The notes below the pieces were generated by a model. That model ran no database searches. It saw nothing but the letters and a program-made list of their open reading frames with translations, and was not told the DNA's origin. Shown piece after piece: positions 91 to 32,000 of a DNA stretch of 32,000 nucleotides. How positions within the stretch are numbered: the first letter of the stretch is position 1; each line of letters begins with the position of its first letter. Origin of the DNA: Candidatus Saccharimonadota bacterium (GTDB lineage Bacteria > Patescibacteriota > Gracilibacteria > BD1-5 > UBA2023); NCBI GenBank assembly GCA_963706795.1, contig OY970170.1:1170001-1202000 (forward strand). The letters run 5' to 3'. A program made the position numbers and the translations under genes.

Positions 91-3000
91 CTATTCAACT
101 TCGTCAATGAATTTTTTGCGTACGTAGCCAGTTCCTTTTTGTGATCGGATTTCAACCCATTCTGAACCATTAAGACGGTCGAGGATAACGATGAGCTCGC
201 CATGTTTGAGTGGGCTGAGTGATCGTACGATCGGAGAATCTCCATCTGGCTTTGAACGAATATTGAGGTATCGAGCTGCATTGACGCGTGCCCATGTAAC
301 CTCGTAGTTGAGTTCGTGACCTTGTGCAAAGAGGTATGGATCAGTGCGGGCAATATCCGAATCCTGAAGCGTTCGGAGATAGTCGAGATAGACCCAACCA
401 TCGACCCCGTCAAATGTTACATGCCCCCAAACTCCTTGTTCCCCAATGAGTTCAACACGGCTATTGCGTGGAAGTGTCGCGAGGAGATCGCCATCCATGC
501 TTGGTGTCAAGCGAACATTGACCGAGTTTGCAGCGCTGATAAATCGTGCACCACCTTCAAATGTATAGTCTACTGGATTTGTACCATTGGTAGCAGTTGG
601 AGTATCGACTGCGTCACCATTCTTTACAACATATCCAAGTCCTGGAGCATCAACTGCATGACCAATTGGAGTCTTTGGAACTGTAGGCTTTTTTATCGGA
701 GTGGTTGGCTTAACTGTTGGCTTTGTCGGTCTAACAATTGGTTTTGTTGTACCCTTCACTGGAGTAGTTGGTGGGTATGGGGTTTTAATTGTTGGAGTTC
801 CCATGTTACCGATTGCTCCTGTTCCGGTAGTGGTAGTACCGGTACCAGTAGTAGTTGTCCCTGTTCCCGTATTTACTGTAGGAGTAGAAGGTGTTGAAGG
901 AAATCCAATGAAGATGCTTCCTCCTCCACTTCCACCACCTCCGCTTGATCCAAATGATCCGCCGCCCCCTCCACCAGATGAACCTCCATTACTTCCGCCA
1001 TTTGTGCTTGCTACTGCGAAGAGTGCGGTACCAACTGGAGTATCTGTAATGTTTCCTGCTGCATCAACTGAGTGTACAAATACGTAATAGGTATTTGTTG
1101 GATCTACACCAACAATCGCACCTGAATGACTTGTACCAACTGTTGATCCGCTCCAAATTGTTGTCGCAACAACATTTGAGCCCGTTCCTACATAAAATGT
1201 TGAAGTCGTCGTTTCGTTCGTTGTAAATGTGTAATAACCCGTTGTCACTCCTGCATTAGTAACTCCTGAGAAGCTCTGAGCACTAATTGCGGGTGCGAGT
1301 GCGTCCTGAGTAATTACCACGTTCGTTCCAGTTGATACATTACCTGCGAGGTCAGTTGCCCGAACTACAAAGGTTGTTCCTGTATTTGTAACGAGTGGGA
1401 GAGTGAGCGTATATGCTCCAGTACCACTTGCGATTGTAGAGACCATTCCTGAAGATGTCGCTGTGACTGTTGCTCCTGTCTCAGTCGTACCTGTGAGAAC
1501 GTATGTAAGTGCATTTGTAATTGCTCCCGTTGCCGAGACCGTAAAGCTTGGTGCAACCGAATCTTGAATTACCGCAATCGATCCAGTAAGGGTCGCCGAA
1601 GTGTCAGTGGCCGTTACGAGGAAATTATTTGTCACATTTGCTGTGAGTGGAAGCGTAACACTATATGCCCCCGTTCCAGATACGGTAGTCGAGGCTGATG
1701 CTGTACCGCTGACTGCAATATTTGCATTTGCCTTTGAAGTTCCTGAAATCGTAAATGTATTTGCGCTCGTCGTAATTGGTCCGACCTGCGTAATAGTGAG
1801 TGTGAGTGGAATTGGATCCTGAGTAATTACTACAGATCCCGTTCCTACATTGCCTGCAAGATCAGTTGCAGTGACCAGAAGCGTATTTGCTGCACCAATC
1901 GAGAGTGGTACAACGAGGCTAAATGCTCCTGAACCATCTGCAACTCCACCGACTACTGCGCCAGAACCTCCAGAGATTACAATGCTCGCAAAGGCTTCTG
2001 TTGTACCGCTAAGTGTTGCGGCGAGTGCACTTGTTGTATGAGCTGCAGTAGCAATTACAACCGCAGGATTGATATCGTCATGCGTAATGCTTACAGAACC
2101 GGTAGCAACATGCATTGCCTGATCGGTTGATGTCAGACTAATCGTATTGAGGCTGTTTGGAAGAAGTGGAACTACGAAGCTATAATTCCCGCCTGCAGCA
2201 CTTCCTGTAAGAGTGAGTCCACCATTTCGAGTCAGTACGAGCGATGATCCAACCTTAGTAGATCCCGTAAGCGTGATGCTATTTGACGAAGTCGCTACTG
2301 GCTGAGGACTGATGAGAAGTGTATTAGCAACCGAGTCTTCGATGACCGTAATGGCGCTCGATGCTGTATTGGTTGCTGCGTCAGTTGCTGTTACTGTGAG
2401 GATATTTGTCGTATCCTGTAGAAGCGTTGCATTCGTACTAAATGCACCTGTAGATGATGCTGTGGCTGTACCTACCGTAGATCCAGACTGGTTGGTGATT
2501 ACGATATTTGCATTCGCTTCGGTGATTCCGTCGATCTGGAATGTATTTGCATCGACGATTGCTCCGCTTGCTGTAGAGAGGATGACCGTCGGTACGATGC
2601 TATCCTGGAGTACATTCATACTTCCAGTTCCTGCATTGCCTGCATTGTCTGTCGCAGTTACGAGGAGGGTATTGAGACTATTTGCTGTGAGCGATACCAC
2701 TCCTGAGAATGTACCATCCGATGCGGCAGTAACCAAGAGAGTTGCTGCTCCACCCGTGATGCTGATATTCGCATTTGCTTCTGTTGTACCTGTAAATGCT
2801 ACTGTTGCCTGATTTGTGACCGTAGTCGCAGGAGTAACAGAAACAACGGGATTAATATTGTCCTGAGTTACCGTGAGTGTTCGAGTAGAAGTATTTCCTG
2901 CTGCATCGGTTGCAGTCACAATGATTGTATTGTGAGCATTGAGCACGAGGGCAACATTGCCAGAGAATGCTCCATTACCGAGAGCAACAACATTGTCTGT

Positions 3001-6000
3001 TGATCCTGTATTACTGATGCTTACTGAGAGACCTGCTTCGGTTGTACCTGCAATATCAAAGCTTCCAGAATTTGTTGTCTGTCCTGAGGCAGTTGAGATC
3101 GTGAGAAGGGGAGGGGTGTTATCGATCGTAATTCCTGTTGCATGAATACCTGAGATATTACTTGAGGCATCAATTGCAATTGCGTCGTAATGCCCGTCTT
3201 GAACTCCTGCTGGAATTGTGAATGTATATGGAACATCCGCGAGTGCATTTGCCTTACCAAGGAATGCCTGACCACTCAGTAGGAGCGCTGTAAGATCACC
3301 TGTTGTTGCTACTGTTGAACCACTTTGTACAAAATAGATGCTTCCATTTTCGTCGATCGAAAGACTCGTTGTACTCGTAGAACCCGTTCGAAGGATTTCG
3401 TTAGTTGCTACAACATTTGTGATTGCCGGAGCTGTGAGATCGAGTGCAGCAGCTGAGTATGTAAATGGCGTACCTGGGATGCTTGCTGTAAGGATGAGAT
3501 TGGCACCAGATGCCGTTGCTGTGACTCCACTTGCTGTAATATTTCCTGCAAGTGCTGTGACTACTGAATTGTCAGTATCAAGGGCATTACTGAGATAGTC
3601 ATAATTTGTCGCATTGACCGTAACACGGAATGTCCATTTTTTAATCGTATTTGAAGGCGTCACCGTAACAATCTGTGAAACCGGTGGTACATTGATCGCT
3701 GTGATCGTTGCAGTCTGCGTATTGATTACTGAGAGTGTGCTTACTGAGAATGCCGTTCCTGCAACATTTGCCGTAAGAATAAGCGTCGATCCTGACATGC
3801 TTGTTGTTACGGGTCCGAGTCCATCGATGGCTGTTCGGAGATTTGTGAGGGTTGTTGCGCTGTCTGTTGCAAATGATGCCTGAGCTGTGAGGCTACCATT
3901 TACTGTAAGGCTTACGGCATCACCAGGGAGGAATGTTGGTACATTCACGCTCATAACCTGTGCGACTGGTGCAACATTGTTAACTGTGGTAGTTGGCGCT
4001 ACAGTATTGCTTACTGAGAGATTTCCGAGAGTAAATGGAATTCCTGCGACTTCTGCAGTAACCGTTACTACGAGCCCGCTTGCTGTCGCGCTCACTCCTG
4101 GTTGTGCGTCGATTGCTGCTGCAAAACCACTCATTGTGAGGGCTTCTGATCCTGAGAAACTCGTTGTAACACTTCCACTGCCTACTGGGAGCGTAAGTGT
4201 GTCACCCGCAACGAGATTTCGAGGCATAGTAACGTCCATAATCTGAGCCTGAGCTGGCACATTTGGCACGATATTCGTGTTTGGAACTGCGAGAGCAATA
4301 CCAAGAGCGCTGAGCGTGAATGGAATTCCTGCAACTTCTGCAGTAACCGTAATAGTAGATGCTCCGCCATTACTTACTGCGCTCACTCCTGGAAGTGCAT
4401 CGATTGCTGCTGCAAGATTTGCGAGAGTTGTTGCTGTGTCGGTTGCAAAACCTGCAGTTACCGTCTGTGCATTTACATCAACAGAAAGCGTCTCACCAAC
4501 CACGAGGGTTCGTGGAATTGTAAATTGATCAACCTGTGCTCCGCTTGCGACATTTGGTACGAGATTTACTGGGCTGATGGATTCGCCATCGAGCTTGAGG
4601 CTTCCAGTGTATCCAACACCTGCCGTCTTTGCTGTGAGTCGTAGAGTCTTTGTAGCTCCGCTATATGAAGCACTCGCAAATGTCCCGTTATCAATGAGTC
4701 CACCAAGAAGCGTCATCGTTGTAGGAGCATCCGTTGTAAATGCCTGATTAACACTTGCGCCTGAAAGTGTCGCAGTAACCGTCTGTCCAGAATGTACATC
4801 ATACAAAAGTGTATAATCATCCACCTGAGCTACCGGAGCTACATTTGCCTGAAGTGTTGTAGGAGTGCTTGAGTTATCTATTGCAATTGTTCCGATCACG
4901 AGACTTGCACCTGTTGCAGTCGATGCAACAATTACTGTATTTGATCCACTTGCTGTTGCGCTTACGCCTGGCTGAAGGGCAATATTCGATGCAACATTTA
5001 AAATCGTAGTTGCGTTGTCTGTTGCAAACGGTGTATTGACCGTTGTACCATTCACGTCTACCGCCACAGCATCACCTGCTACAAAATCCGTAGGGAAGGT
5101 GATCGACTGACGTGCTACCGCACCTGCCGAACTCGAGACTGACTGTGTTGGAGTTACTGTATTGGTAATGACGAGATTTCCAGTTGTAAATGCCGTACCT
5201 GCATCAGCTGCAGTAATCGTAATTACTGATCCGCTCGCAGTTGCATCGAGCTGAGGGAGGCTATCAATATTGCTCGCAAGATTTGCAATTGTCGTTGTCG
5301 AATCCGCAAGATATGTCTGTGTAAAGAGAGTTCCATCAATCGTTACTCCAACACTGTCGCCATTCACGAGCGTACGAGGAAGTGTATATGTATTTGATTG
5401 AGTAACTGCGACTACTGGCGTTGATTGAGTCGATGTAATATTTCCTGGTGTTGCTCCATTTACAAAATTGATCTGCGTTGTTCCTACCTGAGCAGTCTGA
5501 CGCGTAAAGATCGCATGTGTACCGGTTCCACCTGGTGTAATAACACCATTTACTGGATCGCTAATACCATTGAGTCCTCGTAGAAGTGCTGCAATAGTAC
5601 CGATATCAGTAGATGCGATATTGATCACTGCTGCATTATTACTACAGTCATAGTCTGGAAGTGTCACTGACGAAAATGTCACATTACATGAGCCAATCGT
5701 GAGAGTTTCACCTTCGAGTGGAGCGGATACCACATTCACATCGAGTGAAGCCTTCGTTTCAGGAGTATTTGTAGTCACTGAAGTTGATGCTACGCCAGTG
5801 CTGGTTGTTACAAAATTACCAGTAGTGAACGAGTTACCTGCCGTTGCTGCTGTTACTGTGAGTGTACGAGTTCCTGTATTCATCGTTGCATCTACTGCGC
5901 CAAGAGCATCTGTAGCCGTTCCAAAGCTATTTAAAGATGTTGCGTCATCTCCAGTAAATGCACCCGTAAGACTCTGTCCTGCAATCGTCCATGTCGTCTG

Positions 6001-7695
6001 ATCACCCGAAATAATCGTATTTGGAATGATATAACTCGAGATCTGTTTTACAGGATTTGCTGGATTTTGGAGAACCGTAGGTGAGACCTGATTGATCACA
6101 TTGAGGCTCGAAATGCTAAACGAAACTCCAGGTGTCGTTGCTGTTACGGTAATAGTACGAATCCCCAGAGAAACACTCGCATCTACGTTTGCAAGTCCGT
6201 CAATCGCTGCCGTCATAGCAGTAAGCGTCGCGTTTGAGCTTGTGATATATGACTGATTTACGGCTATTCCATTGATCACGATACTCGCATTGTCGCCAGC
6301 AACGAGATTACGTGCAAAAGTGATGGTTTCGCTTTGAGATTTTGCTACAACATTGGCAACGACAGAAGTTGTTGCTACTTGTGTTTGTATAGCGAATGCA
6401 CCAAGAGTAAACGGAGTACCTGCTGCTTCTGCTACCACAGTAACAGTTTTAAGTCCTGGATTGCTCGTCGCTGTAACCCCAGGAAGTGCGTCAATAGCAC
6501 TTGCAAGAGCTGCAAGCGTCGCTGCGCTTGATCCAGAATAGCTGAGATTTACAGGTGTTCCGTTCACGCTTCCTGAGAGCGTATCACCTGCAACGAAGTC
6601 ACGAGCAAAGCTCATAACATCCTGCTGAGCCACTGCAATCACATTTGGTGCCACATGTACCACTGCTACACTATTACCCGTAACCGCAAGTGTTCCAATC
6701 GCAAAGGGTGTGCCTGGAATTGCAGACGTAATAGTAATCGCTCCTCCACTACGAGAAGCATCAACTGCAGCAAGTGAATCAATCTGATTTACAAAGGCAT
6801 CGAGTGTTGCATTTGAGCTGCCTGTATAGCTCTGCACAATCGGCGTACCCGCAACTGTGAGAGCCATTTGCTCACCGGCATCAATCGTTCGTGGAAGCGT
6901 GATTGTATTGACCTGCGCAACTGGCACAACATTTGGCTGTACGACGCTTGGATTTACGCCACTCGACTGAATAACGAGATTTGAGAGGCTGAATGGAACT
7001 CCTGCCGTCTTTGCAATAAAGCTGATTTTATTTGTCGCACCCGAATAGCTCGCATTTACAATCGTCCCCGATGTAATTTGTGAAGCAAGAGCCGTAAGAG
7101 TTGTTGTCTTGTCAGTATTAAAGTTTTGAGTCACACCCGTACCTGCAACAGTGAGTCCTACAACATCACCAGCGATAAGGTTTGCGTTGATCTGATACTC
7201 AGCCTGCTGTGCAACCGCAACAACGTTATTAACGAGCGTATTAAAGTTATTTGGTGCATCTTGTACTACGAGTGTCGGGGTAGCAAAAGGCGTACCTGGA
7301 TTAGCACTCGTAATCGTGTAGGTTCGAGTAGGAGTATCTACAGTCGAGTTTACTTCGGTAAGTGCATCAATTTTTACATTGAGAAGCCCGAGTGTTACCG
7401 TGCTCGAAGTATCGAATGCCTGTGAGACAGTCGTACCGCTGAGAGTAAATACCAAATTATCTCATGGAACAAGGTCATGAGGTACACTCACTTGCACAAT
7501 TTCTGCTCCTGCTGGAACATTAGACTGTGTAAGCGTGGCTGTAAGTGCTGGATTCGCTGCATATGCGAGTCCAGGCATCACAATCTGTGCGATGAGGAGA
7601 ACAATGGAAAGGCCTGCTACTTTCCGACGAAGGTACTGCGACATAAAAGACAGATTAAAAATGATTACTCTTTGAGTGATAGTTTGGCGTGACAT
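91..7695 (-). CDS. giant secreted/cell-surface repeat protein, 2534 aa with TGA 7462-7464 read as Gly; putative adhesin or envelope protein
   Basis: ORF-track pieces 91..7455 and 7462..7695 share a frame and are separated only by TGA. AGGAG lies 4 nt upstream of the ATG at 7695. The N-terminus has a basic region, a hydrophobic core and AYA|A (signal/anchor). Downstream come ~14 repeats of ~97 aa, 7 Ig-like repeats, an FN3-like module, Gly-rich and Thr/Pro-rich linkers, and 2 SH3b-like domains. Stop is TAG at 91-93. Confidence 0.9.
94..560 (-). other. two C-terminal SH3b-like (bacterial SH3, cell-wall binding type) domains of the giant protein
   Basis: First: ARFISAANSVNVRLTPSMDGDLLATLPRNSRVELIGEQGVWGHVTFDGVDGWVYLDYL. 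Second: ARYLNIRSKPDGDSPIVRSLSPLKHGELIVILDRLNGSEWVEIRSQKGTGYVRKKFI. Both fit the (V/L)N(V/I)R..P......(I/L)..L..G..(V/L).......(G/W)W..(V/I).....GW(V/I)...(Y/F)(L/I) pattern. Confidence 0.7.
690..1005 (-). repeat. low-complexity linkers: a Gly/Ser-rich tract followed by a Thr/Gly and Pro/Thr/Lys-rich tract
   Basis: The protein reads GGSNGGSSGGGGGGSFGSSGGGGSGGGS, then TGTGTTTTGTGTTTTGTG, then PTTPVKGTTKPIVRPTKPTVKPTTPIKKPTVPKTP. The corresponding DNA is visibly low-complexity. Confidence 0.9.
1300..3125 (-). repeat. 7 tandem Ig-like (bacterial Ig / Big-type) coding repeats of ~87 aa
   Basis: Each unit has the form DxxxPxxxxxxxxxxTNxxxxxxxGTTEAxAxxxxxxxxxxxxxxxxxGxFSxxxxLxxxxxNxxxVTATDxAGNxxTGSxxxxQD. 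Unit ends are TVTQD, NVLQD, TVIED, SITHD, VITQD, AVIQD and VITQD. Confidence 0.75.
3440..7455 (-). repeat. about 14 tandem coding repeats of ~285-291 bp (~95-100 aa) inside the giant gene, interrupted by one unique insert
   Basis: Recurring pattern: (V/A)AQ(V/I)xx(V/I)T(L/F/M)PRxLVAGDxxxVxVNGxxVxxxFxxDxATTLxxLAxAIDALPGVSAxxSGxxxTITVTAExAGxPFTLxxL. At the DNA level, the 32-mer aatggaattcctgcRacttctgcagtaaccgt occurs at 4034-4065 and 4319-4350 (31/32 identical, 285 bp apart). Confidence 0.85.
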
Positions 7696-8339: not shown

Positions 8340-9530
8340 ATGATACTTCGAACTTCGACAAAACTCTATGCACATGTCGATTGTAATTGTTTCTTTGTAT
8401 CATGCGAAATACTCCGCGATCCTTCGCTCAGGAATAAATGCGTTGTGGTCTGAGGCGACATTATCATCGCGGCATCTTACGAAGCACGTAAATATGGCAT
8501 CCGAGTCGGTACTCCAAAATGGGAAGCAGAACAAATGCTCGCAGGCAAGCTTATAATTCTACCGCCAGATCTCGGATATTATCGCAGAATTTCCGACGAG
8601 TTTCTCTGATTTTTAGGTGAAAGAAGTCTCTCAGTTGAGCCATTTTCTATTGATGAAGCCTTTTTGGATATTACATGACTTCCAGATCGTTTTACTGAAG
8701 GAGATGTCACCAAATTTACCACTCAGTTACGAGAAGAGGTCAAAAATCGCATCGGGATACCAGTATCAATCTGAGTCGCCAATACTCGCATTAAAGCAAA
8801 AATTTTCTCAGATATTCATAAACCAAATGGTCAGTTTGTGGGTCTCGATGCGAGCGACGAAGCTGAAGTTTTTACAGAGCTTCCGGTACGAGACATTCCA
8901 TTTGTGGGACGTAATACTGAGATCAAGCTTGGTAAGAGTGTTCGAACAATACTAGACTTCAAACAGTTTGGCTTTTTTGAACTTGATCGACTTATCGGTA
9001 AGAATGCAACAACTCTTTGGCTCGAGCTTCATGGTGTTGATGTCTGGCATATGGATCATGGCCGAGGCGGGCGACAGAAGAGTATTTTGAGGTCTCGATC
9101 CTTCAATCACTTCATGACAGATAACAAGCATATTCTCTGGCGATATTTCCTCGCTAATTTTGAAAATGCCTACCGTGAACTCATGGAGCTCGAATGCGAA
9201 ATTGGAGAGGTGAGTGTGCTTTTGCGCTCAAGAGAGCTCGTGAGATCCCGAGCTTCACGAATTTTTGATAGCAGCACCGCAGACAAGCACCAAATCCTCG
9301 AAACCTGCAAAGAACTCATGACAGAAGTCTTTACACCTGGAATATTCTATAGAACCACGGGGATTCTGTTTTCGGGCCTAACGATTGCTAATCCGCGCCA
9401 ACTCTCAGTATTCGATGTCGATAACACTCGATATGAACGCACAATCCGACTCGAGCAAACTCTTGCACAGGTCAATCAAAGATATGGCAAATGATCTGTG
9501 AAGCTTTGAGGAACACTTATTAGTGGATAG
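8340..9530 (+). CDS. umuC: Y-family (translesion) DNA polymerase, UmuC/DinB-like, 396 aa, 6 in-frame TGA
   Basis: Motifs YAHVDCNCFFVSCE, SIDEAFLDIT[TGA=G] and PVSI[TGA=G]VANTRIKAKIFSDIHKPNG. It is in frame with ORF-track 8838..9494. I checked every codon from 8340 to 8838 and found no TAA/TAG. It starts 11 nt after the umuD stop. The first true stop is TAG at 9528-9530. Confidence 0.88.
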
Positions 9531-9757: not shown

Positions 9758-10804
9758 ATGAAATATATCAGCGCTCTCGAGGAATTCATCACATATTTGC
9801 GACTACACCGAAATGCGAGTCCAAAGACTATCGAGCAATACGAATTACATATATGGAAGTTTTTAGAGTTCGTAGATCCAAAAACCACAGGTCATCCTGA
9901 TCTCGATCTTCCCCATCATGCTATTTTTGTAGAAACTTCGGAAGATCCTGAAAAACGAGCTAAAAAGATGCAGACAAAGATGTTTTTACGAGGATTATGT
10001 CGTCTCGAGATCGAAAACGTGAATTTAGAGGATTTAAATGAATTTCGCCTATTTTTGGCAGATAAATGACTCGCTGTGAAGTCTGCAAATGCCTATATGA
10101 TCACGTTTCGGACGTTTTTTAAGTTTTTGAAGAAAAAATGAATCCAATGTATCGATCCAACCACCATTGATCTCATTAAAGAAAAGGATCGCCAAGTGAC
10201 ATTTTTAACAACTGAGGAAGTCATGAAGCTTTTTGCGAGTGTCTGAAATGATCGAATCCAGGACAAACGTGATCTCGCAATCCTCGAATGTATCTATTCA
10301 ACTGGACTGCGTATCTCTGAACTCACAAATCTCAACCGTAACAGTATCAATCTCGATACCATGGAATTCATCGTCCGCGGTAAGGGTTCCAAAGTCCGAA
10401 TTGTCTACCTGACAGAACGCGCAAAATGAGCAATTGTAGACTATCTCGAAGCGCGAAATGATCATTTTAACCCACTCTTTATACGCCATAATTACGACGC
10501 AGAGAGTATTAATTCGGCATCTTTAGATGATGAACATGTGCGTTTAACGCGTCAGTTTATCACGGATATGGTCGGCAAGCGCGCTATGAAGGCAGGGATT
10601 CTCAAGGATGTTTCGGCTCATACGCTCAGGCACTCGTTTGCGACGACACTTTTGGAGCATGGTGCAGATATACGATCGATTCAAGAACTTCTTGGTCATT
10701 CGTCAATTACGACGACTCAGGTGTATACACATGTCACGAATCCACGCCTCAAAGAAATCCATCGAAACTTCCATTCGCCTTTACAAAAAGATGGCGACCT
10801 ATAG
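9758..10804 (+). CDS. xerC: tyrosine recombinase/integrase, XerC/XerD family, 348 aa, 4 in-frame TGA
   Basis: ORF-track pieces 9758..10069 and 10538..10804 are in the same frame. The gap translates without TAA/TAG. Motifs: [54 protein letters not shown] (catalytic R..K..HxxR..H..Y set). TGAs are at 10067, 10139, 10244 and 10427. Confidence 0.88.
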
Positions 10805-11253: not shown

Positions 11254-11286
11254 AACTGAGGATCTCTTAGATTCTCAGTTTTTTTA
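11254..11286. terminator. hairpin with T-run between convergent genes
   Basis: AACTGAG at 11254-11260 pairs with CTCAGTT at 11274-11280, followed by TTTTTTT. It overlaps the last codons of the minus-strand gene ending at 11284. Confidence 0.5.
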
Positions 11287-12075
11287 TGTCTTCATAGTGA
11301 GGAAACAGCCAGCTCATTCCATACGAATAATATCAACCGTGTCGCGGTACAATGACTCATATCAGAGCTCTTTACTCATTTCGCGAAGTCGGTTGATGGA
11401 CGAGATGTATCGCATGTTTACGAGCATTCCGAGTAATGCTCTGTCGAGAGAAGTCGCATAACGCTCAAGGAATTTACGAACCAAATAGCCATCTGGATAG
11501 AGTCAGCCAACATGTACAAGAAGCGCGTCTAACAGAGCTGCTTCTAATCCGAGAATTTTAAATTTTTCTCACTGAATCATGTCGATTCGCACGGTCATTT
11601 TTGCAAGTTTTGGGAAGAGATTTCCGCTCGTACGTTTCCCCGCCTCAATAGTTTTGAATACGATTTTGTGCCGTGGAGAGACCTTGAGTATTTTATTAGT
11701 AGACTTTGTATATACAATGAGTATATTGGAAGTAGACATATCTCAGATGTGCATTTCCAGAGCCTTAGGTCAGGCAATGATATATTCAGAATGCACTTCA
11801 CGACGAATAAAGGCGCTCGCAATTTGCCAGTAGTGTGACTCAATAAGTCCAATTGCATCCTTGTTTGATTCGGGTATTCAAATCAAAAAAAGCCCGCTTC
11901 GAAGAGCGAAGATTTGATTCTCAGCCTTGAGTCGGTAGATGGTTTTATATACTTCGCGCTTACCAACCGGACCACGAGTGTTTTCGGGATCAATGATCTC
12001 GAGCATATCCTCCAAAAGTAGAATTTTACTCGGTCTTGCTCACAATTTCTTTACAATTTTGTGAAATTCGATCAT
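11284..12075 (-). CDS. AbiEi-like (type IV toxin-antitoxin antitoxin / wHTH regulator family) protein, 263 aa, 8 in-frame TGA
   Basis: I checked all 264 codons by hand: no TAA/TAG until 11284-11286. The layout resembles AbiEi: N-terminal ...YRLKAENQIFALRSGLFLIG, central YIIAGPKALEMHIGD, and C-terminal KILGLEAALLDALLV. The ORF track shows only an out-of-frame 87-aa piece here. Confidence 0.5.
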
Positions 12076-12150: not shown

Positions 12151-13950
12151 TTACTTTTTATCTATTGTGTCTCGATAGGTCTTCCCTTTCTGATAATCAA
12201 TTTTATCCAGAATATTCTCATCCTTACTTCCCTGCCCTAACTCAAACACACTCGCTTTGGAGTTCATATATTCACCAAGTGCAGAAATACTCTCACTTGC
12301 GACGAGTGTACTCGCATTGATAGTCGTGCGGAAATTGCGGTAAACAATAGACATGTTGTCTTCCCTACCGAATGTGAGACCAAACGAGAGACTAATGACT
12401 CAAATGAGTACCAAATAGCTCGCGATCTGAAAATTAGATGTAAGTGCAATTTCTGGGAATTTTTGCTCAGCAAAGCGTTTTCCAAATCGCAGAAGATGAA
12501 GTCCAAGAAGTGCGAGAAAAGTACCAAGTGGCGCTATAAAGAAGAGGATTCCTGCAAGGATAAGCAGCCAACCAAATTGGATTGATCTTAAAAACCAACC
12601 GTATAAACCAGACTTCCCAAAGGCCTCGAGCGAAAGGAAAAATCTCGAAAGCATCTTGTATTCGCTATATCCATTGGATTCATGGATAGTGAGAATAAAC
12701 TTGATGAAGTAGTATAGGTCCGAATTTTTGTTAAATACGCGCGCAAGTCTTGCAATCAAAAATGGACGCAAAAATCTGAGGAAGAGTGATGAATCCAGCA
12801 TATTCGCGAGCGTTTTTACACGCTCAAGATGTTCGAATGAAACACTGAGTTCCTTCCGTGCAAATGATCGTCGCTTAATCTCATAAAATGCCTGTCGAGA
12901 GAGAAAGCTAATACCCAAAATTGCATCAAGTAAATCAATCGAATTATCATACATAAGCCCCTTACGAAGAACACCCTGAAACTGCTCACGCTTCATGGGA
13001 TCGCTTCCCATTGCATCGTGGGTATCTGCAATGAAATCGAGTTTTTCGACAACAGATCCTTGAGCAATGGATTTTGAACGTGCAATAAACTGCTGGAATA
13101 TATTATCTTCGGTGAGCGCGATATTATATTTAGGAGTCTTCAGGAGCTTCATTCGCAAAAATCGGAAGCAATCAAAGACGCCTTCGGCTTCGATCGTTTC
13201 GAGAAGCTGGCGTGTGATAGAGAATTCACCGAGGAAATATTTTTCCCAAAATGTCACTCGTGGGCCTGATCGATCGGCGATCATTTCGAGATAGAGATCG
13301 CGAGCAATTCGACGTCCATAGTTTTTCCAAGACTTTGAGAGGTTTGAGATTTTGCGGTCAGGTTTTGCAGCGAGTTCAACAACGAGTACCTTAAAAAACT
13401 CGATACAAGAGGGTGTACGAACAAAGTCCACTGCATGTAAATCCATGTCTTTTTCGAGCGCAGCAAGGTAGTCTCCCCTTCCCTCGTCAGTGGTGAGACC
13501 GAGGAACACTTGCTGAGCATCTCGATTTTCGTAGAAGTAACGCAGTATCTCAAACTGCATGCGATACTGCGGATGCTTTTCAAGAACATAGAAATAAAAA
13601 TCCACATCTCGCCAATAACTCTCCTCAAAATAGCGATCGAGATAGGCTTTTTGAGCTGGAAGCTGACCACTCCCCTCATAAAAAGCATAGATGATCTTAA
13701 AAAATCCACTTTTCTCGTACCCTTCGATCAGTTCGATAAAAAGCGCGGAAGTATTCTCATAATAGGCTTTTTCGATGCCGTTCATGAGTCCATCTGCAAA
13801 TTCTTCAACAAGCTCACGCGCCTTTGCTATAGAGAAAAGTAAGGCAATTGGATTCTTTGAAGAAACGAGGGTTTCGAGCTGATTTTGGATAGTAGGTGTG
13901 TCCATGGGATTATTTTGACACACTTTGTCTATTCCTCCAAAAAACCTCAC
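12151..13950 (-). CDS. hypothetical membrane protein, 599 aa (large helical N-terminal domain, C-terminal TM helices, soluble tail), 1 in-frame TGA
   Basis: ORF-track 12400..13950 ends in TGA (12400-12402) and is in frame with 12151..12354. TM-like stretches are FGWLLILAGILFFIAPLGTFLALLGLHLL and IASYLVLIGVISLSFGL. The start is uncertain: GTG at 13950, or ATG at 13905. Stop is TAA. Confidence 0.7.
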
Positions 13951-26970: not shown

Positions 26971-27615
26971 TTAATCAAAATTAAATACATCCACTACCTT
27001 TCCATTAATCTCAATCGAATCCGAATCTGAAAGCACAATCGGTGAGTGCTGTGAATCCTTTGAGTCTGGAAGGAGATAAATACTCTCCCCTTCTTGTTTT
27101 ACTTTTTTGACTGTCGCTGCGCCATTAACGATACAGAGATACGCCCCGAATGGATTATCAACCGCTTTTACACTCGAGTCTACGAGTACATAGGCTCCAT
27201 CCTCAAGCATTTTTCCGCGGATACTAAATGCGTTCATTGATGTACCTTGGAGCTTCACGCAGAAATACTTTTTTTCGTCACCATTGAGTGCACTCTTTGA
27301 GATCAGCAGCTTACCTGCGTCAGCTTCTTCTGCATAGAGAAGTGGTCGACCAGCATTAGCAACCCCAAGAATAGGAATTGGAATTGCAATCTGTGAAGCG
27401 ACAATACGATCTCCGAGGCGGATCGAACGATAGCCTCTTCCACGAGAGATATAGCCCTTGCGTTCGAGGTAGTCCAAAAATTGTACAACCGAGTGCTTGC
27501 TGCGTGCACCGAGAACTTCTTGAATTTCTTCGAGCGTTGGGGATTCACCGTGATTTTCGATGTAGCCCTTCACAATATCAAAGACCTTTTGTTGTTTAGG
27601 AGTGAGCATAGACAT
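26971..27615 (-). CDS. lexA: LexA repressor, 214 aa, no TGA
   Basis: N-terminal wHTH (LTPKQQKVFDIVKGYIENHGESPTLEEIQEVLGARSKHSVVQFLDYLERKGYI). Cleavage-site-like VANAG|RPLL. S24 catalytic Ser in QGTSM and Lys in ATVKKV. Confidence 0.9.
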   Translation of the reverse strand: MSMLTPKQQKVFDIVKGYIENHGESPTLEEIQEVLGARSKHSVVQFLDYLERKGYISRGRGYRSIRLGDRIVASQIAIPIPILGVANAGRPLLYAEEADAGKLLISKSALNGDEKKYFCVKLQGTSMNAFSIRGKMLEDGAYVLVDSSVKAVDNPFGAYLCIVNGAATVKKVKQEGESIYLLPDSKDSQHSPIVLSDSDSIEINGKVVDVFNFD

Positions 27616-31139: not shown

Positions 31140-32000
31140 TTAGAATCGAATCTCAAATACTCGTCCGCGAGAATAGATTGCAGATTTATCAGGCGACAAA
31201 ATAGTTGGCACAACTACGTCACAGCTTCGAGCTTCTGCAAGATACTCTGTACTATATGCACACGGACAGCTTGTACAGCTTGCCGCTCCAAAAATCGCAC
31301 CTGTACTCTTCGCACGATCAAAATAACATTGACCACCAACTCAAGTCTGAGTGAGTGCAAAATCATTCCCTTGATAGACATCAACAAAAGGACATCATCC
31401 ATTGGTTTTTGGTCCGGCAACGAGCGGACAGCGATCATCCGAATTAAGTACTCCATCGCCATCCGTATCGATGGACTCTGTAAAGAGAAGCGTGAGATCT
31501 GCAATAGCAGTAGACCCCTGAGAATCACGCACTGTCAGAGAAACTGGAGTTACACCTGGTCGCAAAAATGTATGTACGGGCGAAATCTCAGTCGAAAAGC
31601 TTCCATCCGAAAAATCCCATCGATAGGTATATGGTCCAACTCAACCACTCACCACACCAGTGAATTTTATATCTTGCGGAACCAAACCTGAGAGTTTATT
31701 GGCAGTTGCGGTAACTGAGAGCCCGCGCAGCTGATTTTTTGGAATAGCTGCATCATCACGAATCTCAACTGTAGCAATTGCAGTCGCTGTACGTCCAGTG
31801 TCTTTATCGCGAATAGTGAGGCGCACGAGCCAAGTTCCAGAGCCATCAAGCGCAAATGACTTGAGACAGGCGCCAGATGCAGTCATTTTTTTACCATCTT
31901 GGATTCTCACAAATTCCCAAGAGTATTCGAGATTGCCAGTCGCTTCAGTAATCGCCGAAAATGTGTAATTGGTTTCTTTTTTATCAGGGAAGGTCGTCAC
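31140..32000 (-). CDS. secreted PKD-domain / thrombospondin-type-3-repeat protein, C-terminal 286 aa (5' end lies outside the window), 3 in-frame TGA
   Basis: In frame with ORF-track 31641..32000. All codons from 31140 to 31643 were checked. PKD-like units (YSWEF..DG, PYTYRWDFSDGS) are followed by [27 protein letters not shown] (a TSP3 Ca-binding motif) and a Cys-rich tail. TGAs are at 31641, 31395 and 31341. Stop is TAA at 31140-31142. Confidence 0.75.

What the first reader, a model, noticed from the sequence alone, without database searches (positions are those of the whole stretch)
3440..7455. The ~95-100 aa repeat unit may be an undescribed domain family
About 14 diverged copies share a clear consensus: AQV..(I/V)T(L/F)PR.LVAGD....V.VNG..V...F..D.ATTL..LA.AIDALPGVSA..SG...TITVTAE.AG.PFTL..L. 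I cannot assign it to any repeat class I know (not Ig/Big, FN3, PKD, cadherin, SLH, LRR or beta-helix signatures).

The pattern has two halves. One half is a variable strand region. The other is a conserved helix-like segment (ATTL..LA.AID) followed by a T(I/V)TVTA strand. This suggests a small alpha/beta module repeated as beads. Copies are diverged at the DNA level apart from short near-identical stretches (4034-4065 versus 4319-4350). The array therefore looks old and maintained rather than a recent expansion.
Basis: inference. Interest (0 to 1): 0.65.

Follow-up and report, generated by a model that had tools for sequence, protein, structure and literature searches.

The report
Phage-sheath-like domain repeated in surface protein
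The ~97-residue repeat is real and has no family model of its own, but it is not an unknown fold: it is a relative of the outer "D3/extension" domain of phage tail sheath proteins, strung 13 times along a giant secreted, wall-anchored surface protein of a Gracilibacteria bacterium that reads TGA as glycine.

Summary
A minus-strand gene carries 13 statistically clear ~97-aa units, 33% identical on average. A 117-aa Cys-containing insert sits between units 6 and 7.

The array spans window 3394-7512, slightly more than reported. Unit 1 runs across an in-frame TGA that encodes Gly (code 25). That TGA joins the ORF to an upstream signal peptide, so the gene is 91-7695 (2534 aa).

No Pfam or NCBIfam model covers the unit. 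It is nevertheless homologous to the external accessory domain of contractile-tail sheath proteins, called D3 in phiTE, "sheath extension domain" in Milano, and probably domain A in E217:
- A profile built only from window units finds bona fide sheath proteins (E down to 4e-16 in 1.8 billion proteins).
- One unit is 44% identical to such a sheath over 66 aa.
- A broader profile hits Milano gp20 inside its extension domain.
- The AlphaFold model (pLDDT 91) has the D3 topology, and its best PDB matches include sheaths.

The same module forms arrays in other giant bacterial proteins.

The protein reads as signal peptide, 13 units, 7 Ig-like domains, low-complexity spacer and two SH3b domains. It is most likely a cell-wall-anchored fibril or adhesin.

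Verdict: a new variant of a known kind, of moderate interest.

The parts
91..7695 (-). Whole gene under genetic code 25: 2534 aa, stop TAG at 91-93. The first ATG is at 7695. The more likely start is the ATG at 7644 (Met18), which directly precedes the signal peptide.
   Evidence: one in-frame TGA and a TAG stop. The code-11 ORF is only 91-7455. The orthologue N-termini P0004 and L001 start at the equivalent of Met18.
7462..7464 (-). In-frame TGA read as Gly (aa 78), inside unit 1, at the 'LV.GD' glycine.
   Evidence: Orthologues have G at this position (P0004; L001). In the L001 orthologue, 19 of 26 in-frame TGA codons align with Gly of the window protein.
7558..7644 (-). Sec-type signal peptide (aa 18-46: MSQYLRRKVAGLSIVLLIAQIVMPGLAYA | ANP).
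   Evidence: Read from the sequence. The n-h-c layout and the AYA/ANP site are conserved in P0004 and L001. No signal-peptide predictor was available.
5761..7512 (-). Sheath-D3-like units 1-6 (aa 62-645). Unit borders are at window 7219/7218, 6925/6924, 6637/6636, 6346/6345 and 6055/6054.
5410..5760 (-). 117-aa insert (aa 646-762) with two invariant cysteines and a unit-like helix (IAALLRGLNGISD). It is conserved in all orthologues and is not demonstrably a unit.
   Evidence: hhalign E 0.11 against the unit profile.
3394..5409 (-). Sheath-D3-like units 7-13 (aa 763-1434). Unit borders are at window 5122/5121, 4837/4836, 4546/4545, 4255/4254, 3970/3969 and 3685/3684.
   Evidence: Unit 10 (4255-4545) was modelled. 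Units 10-12 were modelled.
3118..3393 (-). Connecting domain (aa 1435-1526), unassigned. A Glucodextran_B-like hit starts at its end.
1294..3117 (-). Seven Ig-like Big_6 domains (aa 1527-2134).
   Evidence: Pfam Big_6 E 6e-28 with 7 stretches. Self-profile boundaries.
1024..1281 (-). Beta-rich domain (aa 2139-2224), unassigned. There is only a weak OmpL47-type hit.
559..1023 (-). Low-complexity spacer with Gly/Ser-rich, Thr/Gly-rich and Pro/Thr/Lys-rich parts (aa ~2225-2379). It is a candidate wall-spanning segment.
   Evidence: Read from the sequence. The wall-spanning role is an inference.
94..558 (-). C-terminal region with two SH3b (SH3_3) domains (aa ~2380-2534).
   Evidence: Pfam SH3_3 E 2.8e-18, 66 bits against a cut-off of 27, 2 stretches.

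Best explanation
Each ~97-aa unit is an independently folding beta-sandwich with one helix between strands 3 and 4. It is homologous to the external, non-essential accessory domain of contractile phage tail sheath proteins. That domain is called D3 in phiTE and 'sheath extension domain' in Milano, and is probably the domain A of E217.

Here the module is freed from the sheath core and repeated 13 times. The repeats form the distal two-thirds of the rod of a 2534-aa secreted protein in a Gracilibacteria-lineage bacterium that uses genetic code 25.

Proposed working, shown versus inferred:
- Export through Sec via the N-terminal signal peptide. This is inferred from the sequence.
- Non-covalent anchoring to the cell's own peptidoglycan through the two C-terminal SH3b domains. 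The domains are shown; their role is inferred.
- A low-complexity Gly/Ser/Thr/Pro/Lys spacer that crosses the wall (inferred).
- Seven Ig-like Big_6 domains and then 13 D3-like beads that project outward as a fibril of roughly 70-100 nm (a geometric inference).
- The beads act as spacer and as a multivalent, weakly adhesive surface for contact with a host or partner cell, or with matrix. This parallels the accessory and adhesive roles proposed for the same domain on phage tails.

Confidence differs by claim. That the unit is a sheath-D3 homologue: about 0.9. That the protein is a secreted, wall-anchored surface fibril: about 0.7. That its role is attachment to a host cell: about 0.45.
For: Homology to the sheath domain:
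- The window-only profile A2, searched against 1.84e9 representatives, gives 433 hits at E<=1e-3. About 20 of the top 150 are proteins of 418-555 aa with a copy at about residues 88-188 (two of them, P0053 and P0110, have two copies). The best is P0069 at E 4e-16.
- P0069, P0084 and P0103 match PHROG 205 'tail sheath' at 1e-80 to 1e-120. P0069 and P0084 also match Pfam PF11863.
- P0084 lies between a tail terminator gene and a PhiTE-type tube gene.
- BLASTP of unit 10 against P0084 residues 99-164 gives 44% identity over 66 aa with no gaps, E 5e-14.
- The broader profile A3 against PDB sequences hits Milano sheath gp20 at residues 93-168 (E 5.8e-5) and gp76 of entry 9zdk (E 8.6e-5). The Milano paper assigns residues 91-203 to the external sheath extension domain (PMC10811340).

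Fold:
- The AF2 model has pLDDT 91.4 with the order b-b-b-helix-b-b-b.
- Foldseek probability-1.0 matches are the P-SCSP1u nozzle-size chain (rank 1) and the A-1(L) and phiTE sheaths (ranks 2-5). In BFVD they are uncharacterised phage proteins, tail sheath and tail tubular B or knob proteins.

Architecture: Big_6 x7 and SH3_3 x2 lie above Pfam cut-offs. The signal peptide is conserved in orthologues. The three-unit model gives separate beads.

Use as an adhesin building block elsewhere: P0021 (Methylophilaceae, 3353 aa, 23-28 copies) sits beside an ABC transporter and an OEP gene. P0029 (2906 aa, 14-22 copies) combines the units with Cadherin_5 and Big_9.

Context: the neighbouring genes are chromosomal housekeeping genes, with no phage genes, both in the window and at the orthologous locus L001.

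Background: giant surface proteins of the sister lineage Absconditabacteria are held responsible for a fibrous surface and for host attachment (PMC8080830).
Against: - No experiment or binding-site prediction bears on function. The sheath D3 domain itself has no agreed function (PMC11972413).
- The structure is a prediction from a shallow alignment: 13 sequences for one unit and 5 for the triplet.
- Foldseek E-values against the PDB are modest (3e-3 to 4e-2, TM 0.55-0.64 normalised to the query).
- The signal peptide was judged by eye.
- SH3b domains could in principle bind the wall of another cell rather than the producer's own. That would invert the proposed polarity.
- No partner genes (secretion, sortase, pili) flank the gene, so genomic context adds nothing on function.
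Confidence: 0.7

Rival explanations
1. S-layer or cell-envelope coat. The protein is a structural part of the outer envelope, either a protective or sieving layer or a spacer between cells, and is not a host-directed adhesin. The D3-like beads would serve only as a rigid scaffold.
For: The anchoring logic is the same (SH3b x2, spacer, signal peptide). Unit number and order are conserved across orthologues that are only 28-50% identical, which suggests a length-constrained structural element. The PDB profile search gave a very weak S-layer protein hit (9f8f_C, E 8.3), which is not meaningful on its own.
Against: There are no SLH or known S-layer domains. The layout is a long single chain of beads, not a lattice-forming one. 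Related arrays elsewhere sit in adhesin-like contexts with T1SS neighbours and cadherin-like domains.
Confidence: 0.2
2. Phage-derived element. The gene would be part of a prophage, tailocin or contractile injection system, for example a fibre or decoration protein, and the repeats would function on a virion-like particle.
For: The closest relatives outside the orthologues are virion proteins: tail sheath, nozzle or tail tubular B, and baseplate proteins. JGI names P0029 'phage tail sheath gpL-like'.
Against: No sheath core is present: there is no PF11863 or other sheath hit on the whole protein. The protein has an N-terminal Sec signal peptide and C-terminal SH3b anchors. The flanks carry DinB, a XerC-like recombinase, ValRS and RNR in the window, and unrelated housekeeping genes at L001, with no capsid, tube, terminase or baseplate genes. 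The orthologues sit in different neighbourhoods as a single gene.
Confidence: 0.05
3. Classification rival: the unit is a distant member of the Flagellin_IN (PF07196) module found in the variable domains of flagellin, FliD and hook-associated proteins, rather than specifically a sheath-D3 relative.
For: Flagellin_IN is the most frequent Pfam hit among 60 diverse relatives (3 of 60, best E 9.6e-4). NCBIfam flagellin and FliD models are hit weakly by 2 members each. Foldseek gives the Sphingomonas flagellin entries 2zbi and 3k8v at probability 0.66-0.80 and TM 0.43-0.45. The PDB profile search gives flagellin 6b5b_F at E 0.084. The motif shape is similar (...ING..., helix ending in IN/ID, GV.A., then L.LT...G).
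Against: None of the 13 window units reaches E 10 on PF07196. Profile A3 does not score E. coli FliC or FliD significantly (best domain E 0.015 in a two-sequence search, negative full-sequence scores). The similarity to sheath D3 is orders of magnitude stronger.
Confidence: 0.15
4. One reading: a wholly new domain family with no described relatives.
For: No stand-alone model exists in Pfam-A (2025 copy) or NCBIfam 20.0. The window-only profile finds nothing below E 0.05 among PDB sequences.
Against: There is direct sequence homology to bona fide phage sheath proteins and to solved structures, and the topology matches.
Confidence: 0.03

Closest known systems
External accessory domain of contractile-tail sheath proteins: D3 of phage phiTE, 'sheath extension domain' (residues 91-203) of Agrobacterium phage Milano gp20, and probably domain A of Pseudomonas phage E217 gp31. 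It lies within the span of Pfam PF11863 (DUF3383 / E217_gp31_N).
   Same: Size is about 100 aa. The topology is a beta-sandwich with a single helix between strands 3 and 4. Sequence motifs are shared (44% identity over 66 aa to sheath protein P0084). It is solvent-exposed and not needed for the core function of its carrier.
   Different: In phages it is a single insertion (rarely two) inside the sheath core, displayed about 200 times by helical assembly of the tail. Here 13 copies are concatenated in one polypeptide. There is no sheath core, the protein is secreted by Sec, and it is tethered by SH3b domains.
Giant repetitive surface adhesins and fibrils of bacteria, built from tandem Ig-like or other small domains. 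Examples are RTX/T1SS adhesins with Big, cadherin-like or Ca-tandemer repeats, and Gram-positive wall-anchored rods.
   Same: The overall logic is the same: signal for export, a long rod of many diverged small domains, and a wall-binding anchor. The same D3-like unit is used in T1SS-associated giant proteins of Proteobacteria (P0021, P0029).
   Different: The repeat is not an Ig, cadherin or FN3 fold and carries a helix. The anchor is SH3b rather than LPXTG or an RTX/T1SS signal. The host is a code-25 Patescibacterium.
Flagellin_IN motif region (PF07196) of flagellin, FliD and hook-associated proteins.
   Same: The motif pattern is similar, and the placement is similar: a surface-exposed variable domain inserted in a helically assembling protein. 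Several independent weak hits point the same way.
   Different: No window unit passes any threshold, and E. coli FliC and FliD are not matched. Any relationship is unproven.
Ig-like decoration domains exchanged between phage virion proteins and bacterial surface proteins (Fraser et al., as cited in PMC9230969).
   Same: The evolutionary pattern is the same: a small accessory virion-surface domain that also occurs in cellular surface proteins and is proposed to give weak adhesion.
   Different: The fold family differs, and this particular domain has not, to my knowledge, been listed among them.

Membership tests
Sheath external domain (D3 / SED / domain A) as a domain family | [quoted passage not shown] | tested here: met
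   The AF2 model of unit 10 has pLDDT 91.4 with E5-9, E18-24, E27-32, H37-49, E54-59, E64-69 and E82-85. Units 11 and 12 in the triplet model show a seventh strand. This is a prediction, not an experiment.
Sheath external domain (D3 / SED / domain A) as a domain family | Significant sequence similarity to the domain in bona fide sheath proteins. | tested here: met
   The window-only profile hits sheath proteins at E 4e-16 to 1e-8 in 1.84e9 sequences. BLASTP gives 44% identity over 66 aa, E 5e-14. Milano gp20 residues 93-168 are hit at E 5.8e-5. The sheath identity of the hits is shown by PHROG 205, PF11863 and gene context.
Sheath external domain (D3 / SED / domain A) as a domain family | Structural match to solved D3 domains. 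| tested here: met
   Foldseek probability is 1.0 for A-1(L) sheath 8kee and phiTE sheath 9cuy_A, and 0.98 for 9cc7_I, with TM (query) 0.51-0.56. The E-values are modest (0.02-0.07).
Contractile tail sheath protein (PF11863 / PHROG 205) | A conserved sheath core (handshake and body domains formed by the N- and C-terminal parts), with a tube gene next door. | tested here: not met
   The whole-protein Pfam scan shows only Big_6, SH3_3, Glucodextran_B, Big_13 and a weak SH3_2 hit. No tube, terminator or baseplate genes flank the gene. The protein is therefore not a sheath protein. Only the domain is shared.
Flagellin_IN (PF07196) | A Pfam model match at or above the curated threshold. | tested here: not met
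   0 of 13 window units match at E<=10. 3 of 60 relatives match with best E 9.6e-4. E. coli FliC and FliD are not matched by profile A3.
Ig-like/Big, FN3, PKD, cadherin, SLH, LRR and beta-helix repeats | A match of the unit to the corresponding Pfam or NCBIfam models. | tested here: not met
   Searches give only scattered sub-threshold noise. Big_6 hits lie downstream of the array.
Secreted, wall-anchored surface fibril/adhesin | An N-terminal export signal. | tested here: inconclusive
   The sequence has a typical n-h-c layout with AYA|A, conserved in two orthologues. No predictor was available, so this was judged by inspection.
Secreted, wall-anchored surface fibril/adhesin | A cell-wall-binding module. 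| tested here: met
   SH3_3 occurs twice at the C-terminus, 66 bits against a cut-off of 27. Actual binding was not tested.
Secreted, wall-anchored surface fibril/adhesin | Surface location and adhesive activity. | not testable with these tools
   This needs proteomics, microscopy or binding assays.
Genetic code 25 (Gracilibacteria/Absconditabacteria) | In-frame TGA at conserved Gly positions, with genes ending in TAA or TAG only. | tested here: met
   19 of 26 TGA codons in the L001 orthologue align with Gly, and the window's own TGA aligns with Gly. TGA falls at canonical Gly positions of DinB, GluRS and the dioxygenase, and 17 of 17 stops are TAA or TAG. RNR alpha is 97% identical to a Patescibacteria MAG and 70-74% identical to many Gracilibacteria MAGs.

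The most novel reading that the evidence does not exclude
The D3-like module is a general-purpose, horizontally mobile 'surface-contact' domain shared between phage tails and cellular adhesins. On this reading the episymbiotic or predatory Gracilibacterium uses a 13-mer of it to bind the same kind of envelope ligand on its host cell that phages touch with their sheath surface. The array would then be a host-recognition organelle of a CPR bacterium built from a phage part. It would also give the so-far functionless sheath D3 domain a testable ligand-binding role.
Probability: 0.12. Interest if true: 0.7.

Novelty: new variant of a known kind. Interest (0 to 1): 0.42.

Why it matters
1. It defines a domain family that deserves its own model. 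There are at least 433 cluster representatives at 50% identity, in phage sheaths and in giant bacterial proteins. At present the domain is visible in databases only as an unlabelled part of PF11863 sheath proteins.

2. It links a structurally known but functionally unexplained phage tail decoration (D3 / sheath extension domain) to cellular surface fibrils. This supports the idea that D3 is an accessory contact or adhesion module, and it offers soluble tandem constructs on which to test that.

3. It annotates two-thirds of one of the largest proteins of an uncultured code-25 Patescibacterium. Such proteins are the prime candidates for host attachment in this group.

4. Practical point: code-11 or code-4 gene calling truncates or mistranslates this gene family. 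Orthologues appear in databases as 87-170-aa fragments or with W in place of G, which hides the family from word-based searches.

Tried and rejected
- TRF on the DNA found no tandem repeat in the array. The repeat is visible only at the protein level.
- Pfam and NCBIfam on the whole protein, on 13 units and on 60 relatives gave no family for the unit.
- The window-only profile against PDB sequences gave nothing credible. The best hit was an ssRNA-phage coat protein at E 0.05. Broadening the profile was needed.
- The search for homologous proteins, which uses a word index, returned only four orthologue fragments with profile A1 and nothing with A3 at E<=1e-5. The family was found only by the exhaustive HMMER search.
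- The genome-contig scan with the giant protein found nothing, and the eight-orthologue alignment was too divergent for pattern design. Taxonomy came from RNR alpha instead.
- A shifted-register alignment of overlapping unit triplets (A5) was useless because MAFFT aligned the identical segments out of register. It was replaced by A6.
- The insert at aa 646-762 was tested as a 14th unit and is not supported.
- The Flagellin_IN relationship was tested against E. coli FliC and FliD and is not significant.
- The prophage or CIS origin of the gene was rejected on context.
- The promoter and terminator scan upstream of the gene was uninformative: 2 promoter-like sites against 1.8 expected.

Full report
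**1. What is in the sequence**

The finding lies in a long minus-strand gene. With the standard bacterial code the ORF is 91-7455 (2454 aa). Directly upstream there is an in-frame TGA at 7462-7464. Beyond it the frame continues to an ATG at 7695 and encodes a signal-peptide-like N-terminus. Reading TGA as Gly gives one 2534-aa protein that ends in TAG.

An iterated profile search of the protein against itself finds 13 units of 95-98 aa, at aa 62-645 and aa 763-1434, which is window 3394-7512. Mean pairwise identity between units is 33% for protein and 45% for DNA. The short DNA match 4034-4065 versus 4319-4350 is 31 of 32 bases. TRF finds nothing, so the array is diverged.

Between units 6 and 7 lies a 117-aa segment with two invariant cysteines. 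It has a unit-like helix but does not score as a unit (hhalign E 0.11). No unit occurs elsewhere in the window.

**2. Genetic code and organism**

The TGA of unit 1 falls in the nearly invariant Gly column of the 'LV.GD' motif. Two orthologues have Gly at that position.

A 254-kb Logan contig (L001) carries an orthologue that is 50% identical over 2490 aa and contains 26 in-frame TGA codons. Nineteen of them align with Gly in the window protein.

Elsewhere in the window TGA sits at canonical glycines of DinB, GluRS and an extradiol dioxygenase. All 17 well-supported genes end in TAA or TAG. Code-11 ORF calling leaves gaps that close under code 25.

RNR alpha is 97% identical to a Patescibacteria MAG and 70-74% identical to many Candidatus Gracilibacteria MAGs. 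The window is therefore a chromosomal segment of a Gracilibacteria-lineage bacterium that uses code 25.

**3. Is the unit a described family?**

Pfam-A and NCBIfam give nothing for the repeat region. This holds for the whole protein, for each of the 13 units at E<=10, and for 60 diverse relatives at E<=0.1.

The word-indexed protein search found only four short orthologue fragments. The reason is that this gene family is shredded by code-11 gene calling or mistranslated with code 4. Many database orthologues carry W where G belongs.

**4. What it is related to**

An exhaustive HMMER search with a profile built only from window units returned 433 cluster representatives at E<=1e-3 and 95 at E<=1e-10. 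They fall into four groups:
- Orthologous giant proteins with the same 6 + insert + 7 layout.
- Other giant multi-copy proteins. P0021 comes from a Methylophilaceae genome (3353 aa, 23-28 copies) and sits next to ABC-transporter and OEP genes. P0029 (2906 aa) has Cadherin_5 and Big_9 domains and is named 'phage tail sheath gpL-like' by JGI.
- About 20 proteins of 418-555 aa, most with a single copy at about residues 88-188 and two with a tandem pair.
- Small proteins of 190-260 aa with one copy.

The third group are phage tail sheath proteins. P0069, P0084 and P0103 match PHROG 205 'tail sheath' at 1e-80 to 1e-120, and P0069 and P0084 also match Pfam PF11863. P0084 is encoded between a tail terminator and a PhiTE-type tube gene, downstream of a major capsid gene.

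Unit 10 aligns to P0084 residues 99-164 with 44% identity, no gaps and E 5e-14. Used as a query, P0084 finds the window protein at E 4.6e-34 within the retrieved set.

A broader 60-sequence profile hits solved structures by sequence. These are Agrobacterium phage Milano sheath gp20 at residues 93-168 (E 5.8e-5), gp76 of entry 9zdk (E 8.6e-5) and a second sheath. The Milano paper defines residues 91-203 of gp20 as the external 'sheath extension domain' (PMC10811340).

**5. Structure**

AlphaFold2 on the 13-unit alignment gives a confident model (pLDDT 91.4) with the order strand-strand-strand-helix-strand-strand-strand.

[quoted passage not shown] It reports D3 in phiTE, Milano, A-1(L), XM1, E217 and Pa193, and its absence from Pam3, pyocins and most contractile injection systems (PMC11972413). 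E217 gp31 has three globular domains; its domain A, which the smaller pyocin sheath lacks, is most likely the same domain (PMC10329688).

Foldseek against the PDB puts phage virion proteins on top with probability 0.98-1.0. The best single match is the 806-residue chain 8i4m_A of cyanophage P-SCSP1u (E 3e-3, TM 0.64), which I take to be the nozzle protein from its size. The A-1(L) sheath and the phiTE sheath follow at ranks 2-5, and a Bas63 baseplate chain (9ndy_L, probability 0.91) also appears. Against BFVD the top matches are uncharacterised cyanophage proteins, tail sheath, tail tubular B or knob, and baseplate-J-like proteins.

A three-unit model (pLDDT 83.9, pTM 0.55) shows three separate copies of the fold joined by linkers, one of which has pLDDT below 50. 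The only high-probability PDB matches are again the A-1(L) and phiTE sheaths, each covering one unit. The 'beads on a string' picture is therefore supported.

**6. A weaker, unproven link**

Several independent sub-threshold signals point to the Flagellin_IN region of flagellin and FliD:
- Pfam PF07196 is hit by 3 of 60 relatives, best E 9.6e-4.
- NCBIfam flagellin and FliD models are hit weakly.
- Foldseek gives Sphingomonas flagellin at probability 0.66-0.8.
- A PDB flagellin is hit at E 0.084.

No window unit matches PF07196, and the profile does not score E. coli FliC or FliD significantly. I record this as a lead only.

**7. The whole protein and its likely role**

The architecture, is:
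- signal peptide (aa 18-46);
- units 1-6;
- the Cys-containing insert;
- units 7-13;
- a 90-aa connector;
- seven Big_6 Ig-like domains (aa 1527-2134);
- one further beta domain;
- a Gly/Ser-, Thr/Gly- and Pro/Thr/Lys-rich spacer;
- two SH3_3 (SH3b) domains at the C-terminus.

This is the layout of a secreted rod tethered to peptidoglycan by its C-terminus, with the D3-like beads distal.

Neighbouring genes are housekeeping genes (DinB, a XerC-like recombinase, ValRS, RNR, LexA, MltG, GluRS). They are not conserved between the window and L001, and neither locus has phage genes.

Orthologues that are 28-50% identical keep the unit number and order, and units match one-to-one: 52% identity on the diagonal against 33% off it for L001. 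The array is therefore ancient and each position is individually maintained.

In the sister lineage Absconditabacteria, giant envelope proteins are thought to form the fibrous surface and to mediate attachment to the prey cell (PMC8080830). For phage sheaths, the additional domains are proposed to aid adhesion or stability (PMC9230969). D3 contacts tail fibres in some phages and forms disulfide locks in Milano (PMC11972413).

I therefore favour a wall-anchored surface fibril whose D3-like beads provide both reach and a multivalent contact surface. The homology and the architecture are shown. Secretion, polarity, fibril length and adhesion are inferred.

**8. Verdict**

There is no stand-alone family model, the unit is an alpha/beta bead, and the array is old. 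But the domain is a relative of a solved and described phage sheath accessory domain, so it is not an unknown kind.

What is new is the deployment of this domain as a tandem repeat in cellular giant surface proteins, in a CPR bacterium and in Proteobacteria. I found no description of this in the literature searched.

I rate it a new variant of a known kind, of moderate interest.

Noticed in passing
whole window; e.g. 7462-7464, 8340-9530, 9758-10804, 11284-12075: The window uses genetic code 25 (TGA = Gly). All 17 well-supported genes stop at TAA or TAG. TGA sits at canonical glycines of DinB, GluRS and a dioxygenase. Code-11 ORF calling fragments several genes.
   Followed up: yes
window 5410-5760 (-), aa 646-762 of the giant protein: A 117-aa insert with two invariant cysteines splits the array 6 + 7 in every orthologue. 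It has a unit-like helix but is not detectably a unit. Its role (hinge, disulfide-stabilised knot or ligand site) is unknown.
   Followed up: partly
P0009-P0012, P0025, P0028 and others (database orthologues): Many public orthologues carry W where the family has G, for example 'SWAQVD' and 'AWIPF'. This shows they were translated with code 4 instead of code 25. Others exist only as 87-170-aa fragments from code-11 calling.
   Followed up: partly
P0053 (555 aa), P0110 (529 aa): Two phage tail sheath homologues carry two tandem copies of the D3-like domain instead of one. This could be an intermediate step towards arrays.
   Followed up: no
L087 8001-18062 (P0021, Methylophilaceae CP073759.1): This 3353-aa protein has 23-28 nearly identical D3-like copies, which indicates recent expansion, unlike the window's array. 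It is flanked by ABC transporter and OEP genes and by Big_12/SWM_repeat ORFs, so it looks like a T1SS giant adhesin.
   Followed up: partly
L085 2512-3219, L086 2630-3337 (P0100, 235 aa): A family of small single-copy D3-like proteins (a 12-member cluster that includes Tara Oceans sequences) is encoded directly after a 790-aa Por_Secre_tail (T9SS-signal) protein. Whether it is cellular or viral is unclear.
   Followed up: no
window 26971-27615 (-) and 8340-9530 (+): A LexA homologue and a DinB (Y-family polymerase) homologue are both present. This suggests an SOS-type response in this reduced genome.
   Followed up: no
window 31140-32000 (-): A partial ORF running off the window end has PKD-like repeat motifs and a Cys-rich C-terminal part. 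It is possibly another secreted surface protein. It sits immediately upstream of, and contiguous with, the GluRS gene on the same strand.
   Followed up: no
window 11284-12075 (-) and 12151-13905 (-): A 263-aa ORF with 8 in-frame TGA codons and a 584-aa predicted membrane protein were not given any family assignment here.
   Followed up: no
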